Positions 43,938 to 45,531 of a stretch of DNA of 64,000 nt are shown piece by piece. The stretch comes from Dehalococcoidia bacterium (GTDB lineage: Bacteria > Chloroflexota > Dehalococcoidia > Lucifugimonadales > UBA1127). The position numbers and the translations under genes were made by a program. The stretch covers positions 31,046 to 95,045 of the forward strand of contig CBDBGD010000006.1 of assembly GCA_965205235.1 (NCBI GenBank), given 5' to 3'. How positions within the stretch are numbered: position 1 is the first letter of the stretch; every line of letters begins with the position of its first letter. The notes beneath the pieces were generated by a model that was not told the DNA's origin, did no database searches, and saw nothing but the letters and a program-made list of their open reading frames with translations.

Positions 43938-44771
43938 TCACCAGCGTTTCAGTATGTGGTCTGCAATCTCAATCGCAATGGGAGCACCCCTGGGATTGCT
44001 GGCTGCGAAGAAGAGTTCGAACAAGGGAGAGCCTTTTGAGTTCCTGAGCGTTCGACTACTCGGTGCGACGCGGTGAAACACACCTTCTAGGCGCTCCCTA
44101 TACAGTGATACGACTTGGTGTATTGGTTCCCGTTCTTGCTTGGGTTCATCGCCCAACAGAGACAATTGAGACGAGGTCCGGTAGCTCCCCTGCCAGTACC
44201 CACTTCCTCCGAATATGCGATCTAGGCGCCTTCCCCATGCCGGACTCGGCTCCCGGTCCAAGGGCATGAGACGAGTGACCGCGCTCAACGGGAAGAGTAT
44301 CCAGCAGTCAATCTTCTGAGTCGCGGCGATAGCCTCTACGGTTGACCAAGCCACCTCTGTTGCATACGGGTCGAGGAAGACCACGGCGCGGTCAAAGTCG
44401 CCCATACTACGGCAGAACTCCGGCACCCTAATGTTTGCGTCTCCCTGGATGACCTTTATGTCACGTCCTCGATACTCGTTCGTGAGGATGAGCAAGGCTT
44501 CCGCTGAACTCGCCTCCTTCTCGATAAAGACCAGTCGGTCAAACGGCCTGTCCTCCACCGCCAATGCTATCCGCGCCGAGCCCTGCCGAAACTCGTGGAA
44601 CTCGGCGTAGTCGTCACCTGACTCGAGGTATGAACCGGCGCCTGCGAACCCGTCGACGTAAATTAGGGTGAACCCACGGTTCTTGAGCGCAGTCGTGTAC
44701 GCGTCAAGGTAGGCGCGGAGAATCTCCAGCTTCTGCTGGGTCCACGATCCGCCGAACTGGGGAAGGGTCAT
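43938..44771 (-). CDS. tcmP: three-Cys-motif partner protein TcmP-like (Rossmann/methyltransferase-like fold suspected)
   Basis: 277 aa. The N-terminus FGGSWTQQKLEILRAYLDAYTTAL...LIYVDGFAGAGSY matches my recollection of TIGR04474. VDGFAGAG resembles SAM-methyltransferase motif I, and VVFLDPY resembles a degenerate (D/N)PP(Y/F) motif IV. The ATG lies 1 nt after the DUF5131 stop. GC is visibly lower than in the flanking genes. Confidence 0.7.
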   Translation of the reverse strand: MTLPQFGGSWTQQKLEILRAYLDAYTTALKNRGFTLIYVDGFAGAGSYLESGDDYAEFHEFRQGSARIALAVEDRPFDRLVFIEKEASSAEALLILTNEYRGRDIKVIQGDANIRVPEFCRSMGDFDRAVVFLDPYATEVAWSTVEAIAATQKIDCWILFPLSAVTRLMPLDREPSPAWGRRLDRIFGGSGYWQGSYRTSSQLSLLGDEPKQEREPIHQVVSLYRERLEGVFHRVAPSSRTLRNSKGSPLFELFFAASNPRGAPIAIEIADHILKRW

Positions 44772-44772
44772 T

Positions 44773-45531
44773 TCAACTCAGGGCTGCGGCGGGCATCTGC
44801 ATCCACGTCCGGCCGTCCAGGACCGCGTCCGCTCCGGAACGCTTGCCGCGGCGGCCGCCGAGCTGCTTCAGGAAGTAGGCCACGCGTGCGTCGCGGCACT
44901 GGTCTCGCAGGTCTCGTGCCCACTCCAGCTCCATTGGCCTGGCGGAGCGGCCGCTCTCTCCGCCCGCGATAACCCAGTGCACGGCGCCGGCGTCGAGCCA
45001 CTGGCGGAGGTCGACCGGCCCGAGCAAGGGCTCGGCGGAGACGAACCGGACGGGCGCCGGGAGCCGCGCCAGCACCGAGATGCGCGCGGCGTACTTCTGG
45101 TTCTCGACCGACGTTCCGATCCACACGCCCGCAGGCCACTCGCCGCCATAGCGATCCTGGTTGCGCTCCCACCAGCCAACGGCTCGGCCAGGCCGCTTCG
45201 TGAGGACCTGGAAGACGTGCCCGCGCTGCTCCGACGCAGCGCGCATGACGTCAAACATCTCCGTGACAAACTCGTAGGGGACATGGGGGTGGAAGACGTC
45301 CGACATGCTGTTGACGAACACCCGGCGAGGCTTCGGCCAGCGGAGCGGCACGTCCAGCCTGTCATGGAGCAGCTTCACCTCCTCCGGGCCGTCTTCATAG
45401 CCCGGCACGCCCATGGCCATTAGGCGCGGATACAGCGCGTACATGTAGCAGTGGTCGCAGCCGGGCGAGACGCGGGTGCAGCCCGTTACGGGGTTCCAAG
45501 TCTCGTCCGTCCACTCAATGGTGGATGGCAT
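44773..45531 (-). CDS. phage Gp37/Gp68 family (DUF5131) three-Cys-motif protein
   Basis: 252 aa. [25 protein letters not shown] is the hallmark N-terminus with CX6CX2C. [15 protein letters not shown] and [10 protein letters not shown] then follow. Confidence 0.85.
   Translation of the reverse strand: [252 protein letters not shown]

What the first reader, a model, noticed from the sequence alone, without database searches (positions are those of the whole stretch)
43938..45531. Two-gene islet pairing a three-Cys Gp37/Gp68 (DUF5131) protein with a TcmP-like partner, wedged between uvrB and korAB
What the sequence shows:
- Two minus-strand genes lie 1 nt apart (TGA 44773-44775, ATG 44769-44771), so they are probably translationally coupled.
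- They sit between two core genes, uvrB and korB.
- The upstream protein has the hallmark [25 protein letters not shown] (CX6CX2C) of the phage Gp37/Gp68 family.
- The downstream protein looks like the partner family named TcmP. It carries VDGFAGAG, which resembles SAM-methyltransferase motif I, and VVFLDPY, which resembles a degenerate DPPY motif IV.
- The tcmP-like gene is compositionally foreign. My hand count of lines 44041-44100 and 44101-44160 gives 58% and 48% G+C. The partner and flanks look about two-thirds G+C.

Inference: a metal- or FeS-binding enzyme plus a methyltransferase-fold partner, with phage relatives and an islet-like location, would fit a nucleic-acid modification or anti-phage module. 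To my knowledge no biochemical function is established for this pairing. I rate it the best candidate in the window for an undescribed system.
Basis: partly seen in the sequence, partly recalled or inferred. Interest (0 to 1): 0.75.

Follow-up and report, generated by a model that had tools for sequence, protein, structure and literature searches.

The report
Radical-SAM-like enzyme plus methyltransferase-like partner
Two tightly linked genes encode an iron-sulfur "radical SAM"-type enzyme and a methyltransferase-like partner; the pair is real and already catalogued as an untested anti-phage candidate (PADLOC PDC-M41), and its chemistry is still unknown.

Summary
Two minus-strand genes, 44773-45531 and 43938-44771, are separated by TGA-A-ATG and lie between uvrB and korB. 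They match PF07505/DUF5131 (E 5e-84) and TIGR04474 TcmP (E 1e-55). TcmP GC3 is 0.67, against 0.91-0.95 in the flanking genes.

The pair is not undescribed. Both proteins match PADLOC candidate PDC-M41 at E ~1e-82 to 1e-84. PDC systems are published as untested candidates.

New here:
- TcmP models as a class I SAM-methyltransferase, closest to RlmJ/RsmD. Its SAM motifs and a D-P-[Y/F] motif IV are near-invariant across 137 diverse relatives.
- DUF5131 models as a TIM-barrel-like protein with an invariant CX6CX2C.
- The two genes stay adjacent in every locus where both were found, in any order or orientation. TcmP also pairs or fuses with other radical-SAM-type proteins.
- Contexts include prophage repressor modules, BREX, Type I R-M, Hma and Hna.
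- Two near-identical genomes (korB dS 0) carry TcmP alleles with dS 1.5.
- The GC dip is intrinsic to the cassette.

Best reading: a mobile, SAM-dependent nucleic-acid base-modification module used in phage-host conflict. It is a new member of a known, uncharacterised kind.

The parts
44773..45531 (-). Gene for a 252-aa DUF5131 (phage Gp37/Gp68, PADLOC PDC-M41B) protein, a non-canonical radical-SAM-superfamily enzyme; coordinates include the stop codon
   Evidence: PF07505 E 4.8e-84. PDC-M41B E 2.5e-84. phrog_2045 E 6.6e-85. Weak full-length hit to TIGR04471, radical SAM mobile pair protein A, E 1.7e-7. AF2 model pLDDT 83, TIM-barrel-like. dN/dS 0.14-0.15.
45448..45480 (-). Codons for Cys18...Cys25..Cys28 (CX6CX2C, followed by Tyr29), the predicted [4Fe-4S] ligands
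   Evidence: Cys at 18, 25 and 28. Invariant in 78 close homologues and in 12 diverse homologues from phage, plasmid and chromosome at 41-82% identity.
43938..44771 (-). Gene for a 277-aa TcmP (three-Cys-motif partner protein, PADLOC PDC-M41A), a class I SAM-methyltransferase-fold protein; coordinates include the stop codon
   Evidence: TIGR04474 E 1.1e-55. PDC-M41A E 4.8e-82. AF2 model pLDDT 86. Foldseek best hit 2oo3 (DUF519) E 3e-6, then RlmJ and Trm1. A profile search hits the RsmD-like methylase 2fhp at E 0.0018. dN/dS 0.11.
44634..44660 (-). TcmP motif I (Y38-V-D40-G-F42-A43-G44-A-G46), the glycine-rich SAM-binding loop, followed by an 18-residue low-confidence insertion
   Evidence: D40, F42, A43, G44 and G46 are conserved in 132-137 of 137 diverse family representatives. 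pLDDT is below 50 for residues 45-53 and 56-62.
44364..44378 (-). TcmP motif IV (F132-L-D134-P135-Y136). It resembles the (D/N/S)PP(Y/F) motif of amino-methyltransferases but has one proline fewer
   Evidence: D134 137/137, P135 136/137, position 136 F 74 / Y 59. It aligns with LDPPY of the RsmD-like 2fhp and 2esr.
44769..44775 (-). TGA-A-ATG junction between the two genes, the likely site of translational coupling
   Evidence: Sequence. The same 1-nt spacing is found in L001, L003, L088 and L092; L091 has a 4-nt overlap.
45532..45712 (-). 181-nt spacer between the korB stop and the DUF5131 start. It has a G-rich Shine-Dalgarno-like run (GGGCGGGGGG) 6-15 nt before the ATG and a TTGACA hexamer. 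No canonical promoter was found on this strand
   Evidence: Sequence. Promoter scan found nothing on the minus strand. Only 49-69% identical to L001/L003, against 84-96% in korB. Homology with L104 ends 4 nt past the korB stop.
44019..44815 (-). Tract replaced between two otherwise near-identical relatives, L001 and L003. It covers essentially the whole tcmP gene
   Evidence: L001 versus L003 DNA identity is 56-78% here and 95-100% on both sides. dS is 1.5 for tcmP, against 0.00 for korB, 0.027 for uvrB and 0.077 for DUF5131.

Best explanation
The locus is a two-gene, translationally coupled cassette. The first product, DUF5131, is a small non-canonical radical-SAM-superfamily enzyme. Its three invariant cysteines (CX6CX2C) would hold a [4Fe-4S] cluster that cleaves S-adenosylmethionine to a 5'-deoxyadenosyl radical. 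The second product, TcmP, is an RsmD/RlmJ-like SAM-binding methyltransferase-fold protein. It has an intact SAM pocket, a D-P-[Y/F] pocket of the kind that holds an exocyclic amino group of a flipped-out base, and a variable helical insertion that probably recognises the target.

Shown here: the family identities, the folds, the conserved motifs, the persistent linkage, purifying selection, mobility, and allele exchange of tcmP.

Inferred: the two act on one substrate as a SAM-dependent nucleic-acid base-modifying machine. TcmP would bind, flip and probably N-methylate the base. DUF5131 would then do a radical step on the same base or its new methyl group. This parallels a methyltransferase followed by a radical SAM enzyme in wybutosine synthesis. 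The resulting covalent mark would serve phage-host conflict. It could be a stand-alone defence expressed from chromosomes, plasmids and lysogenic prophages, or a protective mark on the carrier's own DNA.

This window's copy is an instance of the catalogued but untested candidate PDC-M41. It is inherited at the korB-uvrB junction in this Dehalococcoidia-like lineage.

Confidence by tier: identity of the pair about 0.95; nucleic-acid modification used in conflict about 0.5; the specific order of steps about 0.15.
For: Identity.

Radical SAM status of DUF5131:
- DUF5131 appears in the paper's table of radical SAM superfamily subgroups, mapped to Megacluster-5-2 of RadicalSAM.org (PMC9477430).
- Invariant CX6CX2C-Y, plus SMxDxF, LTKR, FxSxEPL, GGESG and KQxG motifs.
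- TIM-barrel-like model. The named structural matches include radical SAM enzymes: BlsE at prob 0.97 and LIAS at prob 0.98 in PDB, and many phage radical SAM proteins in BFVD.

TcmP as an active SAM enzyme:
- Foldseek hits RlmJ/DUF519, Trm1 and EgtD at E 3e-6 to 2e-5.
- The profile alignment to RsmD-like 2fhp matches the IEK, DAN and LDP(P)Y motifs.
- The motifs are near-invariant in 137 representatives that are at most 50% identical to each other.

Functional coupling:
- The pair is adjacent in 9 of 9 IMG/VR loci, 2 phages, pSymA and 6 chromosomal loci, in all orders and orientations.
- TcmP is fused to the radical-SAM-like DUF1848 in P0328.
- TcmP is paired with a PF04055 radical SAM protein in Nostoc.

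Conflict role:
- PDC-M41 comes from guilt-by-embedding in BREX, DISARM and Type I R-M.
- The pair sits directly downstream of CI, S24 or HTH repressors in BaxterFox, L098 and L102.
- It sits beside Type I R-M (L097), HmaB/HmaC plus a serine recombinase (L103), BREX (Nostoc) and Hna/PDC-S28 (pSymA).
- tcmP was replaced between near-identical genomes with dN/dS 0.11.
- COG4422 is enriched in sponge symbionts alongside defence COGs (PMC5649159).
Against: - No experiment anywhere shows cluster binding, SAM cleavage, a modified nucleoside or a phage phenotype. PDC systems are explicitly untested.
- In the window and in the closest clade (L091, L092, L093) the flanks are housekeeping genes, not defence islands.
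- No nuclease or other effector is attached here.
- DUF5131 gives no PF04055 hit and has no close solved structural relative: best Foldseek E is 3.5e-3 and TM to the radical SAM hits BlsE and LIAS is 0.40-0.46.
- TcmP motif IV lacks one proline, and its fold hits include small-molecule enzymes such as EgtD, AzeJ and spermidine synthase.
- In phages DUF5131 is usually found without a detectable TcmP: 180 records against 5. It can therefore work without this partner.
- The complex was not modelled.
Confidence: 0.5

Rival explanations
1. Phage-derived self-protection module. The pair writes a protective mark on the DNA of whichever replicon carries it, so that the DNA escapes restriction. This works like an orphan methyltransferase or a phage hypermodification pathway. 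The chromosomal copies would be domesticated or leftover versions. This rival overlaps the best explanation and differs only in who benefits.
For: DUF5131 is common in phages (180 records). It lies in early, replication or modification regions next to a DNA methylase, a PAPS-reductase-like protein, HNH and RecT. In L099 the pair lies between a ParB-N6/N4 DNA methylase and a primase. No restriction component accompanies the pair in most contexts.
Against: TcmP itself is rare in phages (5 records). Three prophage cases place the pair in the lysogeny module behind the repressor, not in the lytic module. No prophage genes flank the window copy, and no repeats suggest an element boundary.
Confidence: 0.15
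2. Antiviral or other small-molecule synthesis. DUF5131 radically rearranges a free nucleotide or metabolite and TcmP methylates or alkylates it, in the manner of prokaryotic viperins that make chain terminators.
For: TcmP fold hits include the small-molecule SAM enzymes EgtD, AzeJ, spermidine synthase and COMT. One fusion joins TcmP to an FGE-sulfatase (EgtB-like) domain (P0383). A stand-alone two-enzyme cassette needs no nuclease if its product is the effector.
Against: The best fold and profile matches are RNA base amino-methyltransferases: RlmJ/DUF519, Trm1 and RsmD-like. A D-P-[Y/F] motif and a variable insertion subdomain suit macromolecular target recognition. No kinase, transporter or biosynthetic neighbour recurs.
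Confidence: 0.12
3. Housekeeping RNA modification. The pair installs a modified base in rRNA or tRNA of the host, as RlmJ, RsmD, RlmN or TYW1 do, with no role in conflict.
For: The nearest structural relatives of TcmP are rRNA and tRNA methyltransferases. In the window clade the neighbours are core genes and the pair is under purifying selection. It is retained at the same site in two relatives.
Against: The pair sits at a different site in each lineage. It is absent downstream of uvrB in the nearest GTDB species representative. It occurs on plasmids and in phages. tcmP was swapped between near-identical genomes. The pair matches defence-candidate models.
Confidence: 0.12
4. DNA repair. DUF5131 is a spore-photoproduct-lyase-like radical SAM lyase that reverses a DNA lesion, and TcmP acts as the lesion-recognition subunit.
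For: In the RadicalSAM.org table, DUF5131 is mapped to Megacluster-5-2 and spore photoproduct lyase to Megacluster-5-3. Repair genes lie nearby in several loci: ruvB and uvrB here, recA and recX in L092, OGG in L088, SRAP in L091 and phi1026b.
Against: The repair neighbours differ from locus to locus and are not adjacent in a conserved way. No similarity to SPL was detected by sequence or fold. Allele swapping and embedding in defence systems are not expected for a repair enzyme.
Confidence: 0.08

Closest known systems
PADLOC phage defence candidate PDC-M41 (A = TcmP-like, B = DUF5131-like)
   Same: Both proteins match the A and B models nearly end to end (E 4.8e-82 and 2.5e-84) and the genes are adjacent.
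   Different: PDC-M41 is an untested candidate found by embedding in BREX, DISARM and Type I R-M. This copy is not embedded in any defence system; it lies between korB and uvrB.
[quoted passage not shown]
   Same: Scores are far above the curated cutoffs. The defining adjacency to a three-Cys protein is present.
   Different: Nothing differs. These families are defined by sequence and gene neighbourhood only and carry no function.
PADLOC PDC-M30 and the S. meliloti pSymA cluster Hna(PDC-S28)-TcmP-PDC-M30A-DUF5131
   Same: The DUF5131 component is shared (PDC-M30B E 2e-80). M30A is a distant TcmP homologue that keeps VDGFAGAG (hhalign prob 86%).
   Different: M30A is longer (415 aa), has a C-terminal GMT-like wHTH domain and lacks the D-P-[Y/F] motif. 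The window has no M30A and no Hna.
RlmJ/DUF519, RsmD and Trm1 RNA base amino-methyltransferases
   Same: Class I Rossmann fold, motif I, an acidic residue after beta-2, a D-A-N motif, and a motif IV in the same place.
   Different: TM-scores are only about 0.5. No Pfam methyltransferase hit for this protein. Motif IV is DP[YF], not DPPY. There is an 18-residue insertion after motif I. The obligatory radical-SAM-type partner is absent from those enzymes.
Canonical radical SAM enzymes (PF04055), e.g. BlsE, lipoyl synthase, RlmN/Cfr, TYW1
   Same: Three-Cys cluster motif near the N terminus followed by an aromatic residue, a barrel fold, and a GGE-like motif. The methyltransferase-plus-radical-SAM logic resembles Trm5 followed by TYW1 in wybutosine synthesis (established knowledge, not tested here).
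   Different: CX6CX2C instead of CX3CX2C. No PF04055 match. TM is only 0.40-0.46 to solved radical SAM structures. The protein is much smaller and has no auxiliary domains.
Restriction-modification, BREX and Dpd-type epigenetic defence
   Same: SAM-dependent modification genes, mobile, often in defence islands. A helicase-nuclease gene follows the pair in L088 (HKD+Snf2, DrmD/DpdE-like fragment) and Hna precedes it in pSymA.
   Different: No nuclease or other effector gene accompanies the pair in the window or in most loci.

Membership tests
Pfam PF07505 / DUF5131 (phage Gp37/Gp68) | HMM score above the gathering threshold over the full model | tested here: met
   282.1 bits against 28.9; residues 3-247 cover model positions 2-243 of 243.
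Pfam PF07505 / DUF5131 (phage Gp37/Gp68) | N-terminal three-cysteine motif | tested here: met
   C18, C25 and C28 (CX6CX2C), invariant in close and diverse homologues.
NCBIfam TIGR04474 TcmP | HMM score above the curated cutoff | tested here: met
   189.4 bits against 53; residues 10-271 cover model positions 2-260 of 263.
NCBIfam TIGR04474 TcmP | Encoded next to a three-Cys-motif (radical-SAM-like) protein | tested here: met
   1 nt downstream of the DUF5131 gene. The linkage holds in every other locus examined that has both genes.
PADLOC PDC-M41 | Both component models (A and B) matched by adjacent genes | tested here: met
   PDC-M41A E 4.8e-82; PDC-M41B E 2.5e-84.
PADLOC PDC-M41 | Confers resistance to phage | not testable with these tools
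   PDC systems are described as 145 untested candidates. No paper text mentions PDC-M41.
Radical SAM superfamily | Canonical CX3CX2C motif and a PF04055 match | tested here: not met
   The motif is CX6CX2C. Pfam returns only PF07505. DUF5131 appears in a published table of radical SAM superfamily subgroups (PMC9477430), so this is a non-canonical member by curation, not by this test.
Radical SAM superfamily | Partial or full TIM-barrel core resembling solved radical SAM enzymes | tested here: inconclusive
   The model is an alternating beta/alpha barrel with pLDDT 83. Hits to BlsE and LIAS have prob 0.97-0.98 but TM 0.40-0.43 and E at or above 9e-3. Non-radical-SAM TIM barrels score equally well.
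Radical SAM superfamily | [4Fe-4S] binding and reductive cleavage of SAM | not testable with these tools
   Needs anaerobic purification, UV-visible and EPR spectroscopy, and a 5'-deoxyadenosine assay.
Class I SAM-dependent amino-methyltransferases (RsmD/RlmJ type) | Rossmann methyltransferase fold with a glycine-rich motif I and an acidic residue after beta-2 | tested here: met
   Foldseek E 3e-6 to 2e-5 to 2oo3, RlmJ and Trm1. D40-x-F-A-G-x-G46 and E/D84 are near-invariant.
Class I SAM-dependent amino-methyltransferases (RsmD/RlmJ type) | Motif IV (D/N/S)-P-P-(Y/F/W) | tested here: not met
   The motif is D134-P135-[Y/F]136 with a single proline. It aligns with LDPPY of 2fhp and 2esr with a one-residue gap.
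Class I SAM-dependent amino-methyltransferases (RsmD/RlmJ type) | Methyl transfer to a base amino group | not testable with these tools
   Needs an enzyme assay or nucleoside mass spectrometry.
Restriction-modification-like two-part defence | A cognate nuclease or effector encoded with the modification genes | tested here: not met
   Only uvrB and korB flank the pair. Effector-like neighbours occur only in some other loci.

The most novel reading that the evidence does not exclude
The DUF5131-TcmP pair makes a chemically new, radical-SAM-dependent hypermodification of a nucleobase in DNA or RNA. That mark alone, without any nuclease, would decide the outcome of phage infection. The swappable TcmP insertion subdomain would set target specificity, much as specificity subunits do in R-M systems.
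Probability: 0.25. Interest if true: 0.8.

Novelty: new member of a known kind. Interest (0 to 1): 0.45.

Why it matters
The pair is widespread. TcmP alone has more than 3,200 clusters at 50% identity. It has been catalogued as a conserved pair, yet no function is known for it.

A radical SAM enzyme tied to a methyltransferase-fold partner would add new chemistry to phage-host conflict, whether it modifies nucleic acid or makes an antiviral molecule.

This analysis does not discover the system. It does give concrete handles for experiments:
- intact SAM-binding and D-P-[Y/F] motifs that can be mutated;
- a variable subdomain that may set specificity;
- natural allele swaps between near-identical genomes;
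- tractable carriers, namely S. meliloti pSymA next to Hna and Gordonia phage BaxterFox behind its repressor.

Tried and rejected
- **TcmP as a substrate.** I considered that TcmP Cys156, invariant in close homologues, is post-translationally modified by the radical SAM partner, by analogy with sulfatase maturation and prompted by the FGE-sulfatase fusion. Rejected: position 156 is L, V, M or T in diverse family members.
- **Recent acquisition of tcmP alone.** Rejected as the explanation of the G+C dip, because the same GC3 step recurs in six loci whatever the host G+C.
- **In-situ positive selection on tcmP.** Rejected: dS is saturated at 1.5 and dN/dS is 0.11, so a divergent allele was brought in by recombination.
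- **Mobile-element scars.** No flanking direct or inverted repeats beyond chance-level 10-22-mers.
- **Promoter and terminator.** No promoter on the coding strand and no convincing terminator. TTGACA and TATGAT hexamers exist upstream but are only 7 nt apart.
- **Sequence and profile searches of PDB.** Nothing for DUF5131. Only weak RsmD-like hits for TcmP.
- **hhalign of DUF5131 against DUF1848 and the Nostoc radical SAM protein.** Only the short GC...GCxxCY stretch aligned, which is not significant.
- **Empty-site search.** The uvrB-based scan of GTDB genomes found no close relative with conserved synteny; the best hit is 76% identical and has no korB nearby. A clean empty-site comparison was therefore not possible. 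Only the short contig L104 shows a different korB 3' junction.
- **Literature.** No functional study turned up for DUF5131, TcmP, TIGR04474, PDC-M41, Gp37/Gp68, COG4422 or TIGR04471.
- **Complex prediction.** Not possible with the tools at hand.
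Full report
**1.

The window has two minus-strand ORFs. One is 44773..45531 (252 aa) and the other is 43938..44771 (277 aa). The junction reads TGA-A-ATG on the coding strand.

They lie between uvrB (41916..43919, +) and korB/korA (45713..46579 and 46576..48303, -). All of korA, korB, the DUF5131 gene and tcmP are co-oriented. uvrB converges on tcmP, with 18 nt between the two stop codons.

The upstream protein matches PF07505/DUF5131 at E 4.8e-84 and phrog_2045. [quoted passage not shown]

tcmP G+C is 0.574 against 0.682 for the window. GC3 is 0.673, against 0.870 for the DUF5131 gene and 0.91-0.95 for six flanking genes.

**2. The pair is already catalogued**

Both proteins match PADLOC-DB candidate PDC-M41: component A at E 4.8e-82 and component B at E 2.5e-84. 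PDC systems are 145 candidates derived by 'guilt-by-embedding' in BREX, DISARM and Type I R-M. They are explicitly untested (bioRxiv 10.1101/2024.01.29.577857).

DUF5131 appears in a published table of radical SAM superfamily subgroups, mapped to RadicalSAM.org Megacluster-5-2 (PMC9477430).

No paper in the searchable library reports a function for DUF5131, TcmP, PDC-M41 or their synonyms. The only mentions are annotation tables. One example is tcmP (SMa2243), listed next to hna (SMa2245) among the genes upregulated in an S. meliloti nolR+ strain (PMC12445080).

**3. What the proteins look like**

*DUF5131*
- The AlphaFold2 model has pLDDT 83 and pTM 0.85. It is an alternating beta/alpha barrel preceded by the Cys loop.
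- No solved structure is close: the best Foldseek E is 3.5e-3. The named hits include the radical SAM enzymes BlsE and lipoyl synthase (prob 0.97-0.98, TM 0.40-0.46), but ordinary TIM barrels score as well.
- In BFVD, beyond a few closer unnamed hits, the named matches are mostly phage radical SAM proteins.
- Twelve diverse homologues at 41-82% identity, from phages, a plasmid and chromosomes, share invariant residues: C18, C25, C28 and Y29, plus the motifs SMxDxF, LTKR, WxGxxxE, FxSxEPL, WxIxGGESG and KQxG.
- There is a weak full-length hit to TIGR04471, 'radical SAM mobile pair protein A' (E 1.7e-7).
- The Cys motif is CX6CX2C, not the canonical CX3CX2C, and PF04055 is not matched.

*TcmP*
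- The model has pLDDT 86 and is a class I SAM-methyltransferase.
- The best PDB matches are 2oo3 (DUF519; E 3e-6, TM 0.52), E. coli RlmJ (23S rRNA m6A2030), Trm1 and EgtD.
- A profile of 85 homologues hits the RsmD-like methylase 2fhp at E 0.0018. The alignment places TcmP FIEK on IEK, GDAN on DAN, and FLDP-Y on LDPPY.
- In 137 family representatives that are at most 50% identical to each other, these positions are invariant or nearly so: D40, F42, A43, G44, G46, G64, S65, E/D84, D/E111, N113, D134, P135, [F/Y]136, D155, P161, G188 and W193.
- TcmP therefore keeps a complete SAM pocket and a single-proline version of the amino-methyltransferase motif IV.
- An 18-residue low-confidence loop splits motif I from helix A.
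- An insertion between beta-5 and beta-6, roughly residues 162-231, is the least conserved part of the family.

**4. The two genes are functionally tied**

The DUF5131 and TcmP genes are adjacent in the following loci:
- the window and two close relatives;
- four other chromosomal loci;
- 9 of 9 IMG/VR contigs found with a TcmP profile;
- Synechococcus phage Ssp-JY39, Gordonia phage BaxterFox and S. meliloti pSymA.

Gene order and orientation vary: DUF5131 then TcmP, TcmP then DUF5131, or convergent. This is the classical signature of a functional rather than a transcriptional link.

TcmP also combines with other radical-SAM-type proteins. P0328 is a DUF1848-TcmP fusion. On a Nostoc plasmid, TcmP faces a PF04055 radical SAM gene. 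The pSymA protein between tcmP and the DUF5131 gene is PDC-M30A, a distant TcmP paralogue with a wHTH domain.

The reverse does not hold. DUF5131 is present in 180 phage records and TcmP in only 5. Solo phage versions are longer, 323-386 aa, and sit in early or replication regions.

**5. Genomic contexts**

Defence or lysogeny contexts:
- directly downstream of the immunity repressor in BaxterFox;
- downstream of an HTH_3 repressor in L098 and an S24 peptidase repressor in L102;
- next to a complete Type I R-M system in L097;
- next to HmaB/HmaC and a serine recombinase in L103;
- next to BREX genes on the Nostoc plasmid;
- next to Hna (PDC-S28) on pSymA;
- followed by an HKD+Snf2 fragment in L088.

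In the clade closest to the window (TcmP 61-87% identical), the flanks are housekeeping genes. The site differs in each genome.

**6. History at this locus**

The closest public relatives are L001 and L003, which are contigs of 2.35 and 2.28 Mb from different samples. Both have the pair in the same place. Their UvrB and KorB are 95% identical to the window's, DUF5131 is 84-85% identical, and TcmP is 87% and 74% identical.

L001 and L003 are themselves almost identical:

| Gene | dS, L001 vs L003 |
|---|---|
| korB | 0.000 |
| uvrB | 0.027 |
| DUF5131 | 0.077 |
| tcmP | 1.5 (dN/dS 0.11) |

Across tcmP their DNA identity is only 56-78%. One lineage has therefore replaced tcmP with a divergent allele by recombination, and the gene remains under purifying selection. 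Amino-acid identity between the two alleles is lowest (0.58) in codons 201-245, within the variable insertion.

A 1,976-bp contig, L104, encodes an identical KorB (97% DNA identity). It loses all similarity to the window 4 nt after the korB stop. It continues into a terminator-like hairpin and an ORF whose translation looks hydrophobic, like a membrane protein (by eye; not searched against any family). The junction therefore appears polymorphic, but a short metagenomic contig could be chimeric.

The nearest GTDB species representative by UvrB is a Dehalococcoidia MAG at 76% identity. It has neither korB nor the pair downstream of uvrB.

No repeats mark an element boundary.

**7. The G+C dip is intrinsic to the cassette**

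In L001, L003, L088, L091, L092 and L093, locus G+C ranges from 0.57 to 0.67. In each, tcmP GC3 is 0.16-0.26 below that of its DUF5131 partner. In the lower-GC hosts the DUF5131 gene is above host G+C. The dip therefore does not date the arrival of tcmP in this genome.

**8. Interpretation**

Shown here:
- a conserved, translationally coupled pair under purifying selection;
- a radical-SAM-superfamily-type protein and an intact SAM-binding methyltransferase-fold protein;
- long-term mobility across chromosomes, plasmids and prophages;
- recurrent placement in defence or lysogeny modules;
- allele exchange of tcmP.

Inferred: the pair acts on one nucleic-acid base, with TcmP for recognition and probable N-methylation and DUF5131 for a radical step. 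The product would serve phage-host conflict.

The rivals cannot be excluded without experiments. They are phage-style self-protection, small-molecule synthesis, housekeeping RNA modification and DNA repair. They are scored in the rival explanations.

**9. Verdict**

The inference of a modification or anti-phage module is reasonable, but the claim that the system is undescribed is not.

This is a new member of a catalogued, functionally uncharacterised candidate system. Interest is moderate. The most useful new points are the tcmP allele replacement, the cassette-intrinsic G+C step, the family-wide conservation of the TcmP catalytic motifs, and the identification of tractable carriers for testing.

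Noticed in passing
L001 8001-8834 versus L003 8001-8834 (window equivalent about 44019-44815): Two near-identical genomes (korB dS 0, uvrB dS 0.027) carry tcmP alleles only 72% identical in protein, with dS 1.5 and dN/dS 0.11. This is a clean allelic replacement confined to tcmP and the last part of the DUF5131 gene.
   Followed up: yes
L001, L003, L088, L091, L092, L093 (pair at about 7241-8834 or 9241-10840): In every locus tcmP GC3 is 0.16-0.26 lower than that of the adjacent DUF5131 gene, whatever the host G+C. The cause of this cassette-intrinsic composition step is unexplained.
   Followed up: partly
L104 1014-1976 (window equivalent: just past the korB stop at 45713): A short contig encodes an identical KorB protein. 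It diverges completely 4 nt after the korB stop into a terminator-like hairpin and an ORF that looks membrane-protein-like by eye. This is either a polymorphic junction or a chimeric assembly.
   Followed up: partly
L003 3334-4215: An Mrr-family restriction endonuclease gene (Mrr_N, Mrr_cat) is inserted between korA and the trmA-like gene in L003. It is absent from L001 and from the window, so this neighbourhood is a small hot spot for accessory genes.
   Followed up: no
window 59985-60698 (+): This is the second strong low-G+C patch in the window (down to 0.546). It holds a 237-aa ORF between ruvA and pth with no Pfam or NCBIfam hit. By eye, its N-terminal ...SKLE...(x)n...PDF...EVK pattern resembles a PD-(D/E)xK nuclease.
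   Followed up: partly
L085 6972-7697 (Gordonia phage BaxterFox, record 32212-32937): An intact DUF5131 ORF (49% identical over 256 aa) lies on the strand opposite to the annotated small genes 40 and 41. It appears to be missing from the deposited annotation. It is convergent with the TcmP-like gene 42, which sits just behind the immunity repressor gene 43.
   Followed up: partly
L087 5343-11004 (S. meliloti 1021 pSymA): Four genes lie in a row: Hna (PDC-S28), TcmP, a PDC-M30A protein with a GMT-like wHTH domain, and DUF5131. A proven defence gene thus sits beside a three-gene variant of the candidate system in a tractable organism.
   Followed up: partly
P0383 (1226 aa) and P0328 (608 aa), metagenomic proteins: TcmP occurs fused to an FGE-sulfatase domain (P0383) and to DUF1848 (P0328). 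Separately, a paper reports that UG25 reverse transcriptases with an N-terminal methylase domain associate with a DUF1848 protein (bioRxiv 10.1101/2021.12.02.470933). Whether that methylase is TcmP-like was not checked.
   Followed up: no
window 1926-2016, 22624-22697, 26552-26664: The window holds a selenocysteine tRNA gene, one ordinary tRNA gene and a TPP riboswitch. These were the only Rfam matches at gathering score.
   Followed up: no
L107 2943-5952 (Mycobacterium phage prophiGD13-2) and L105 3390-4550 (Che9c gp68): Solo phage DUF5131 proteins are longer (326-386 aa). In prophiGD13-2 the gene lies two small genes downstream of a DNA methylase gene and directly upstream of PAPS-reductase-like and HNH genes. 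The depositors labelled it 'RNA methyltransferase'.
   Followed up: no
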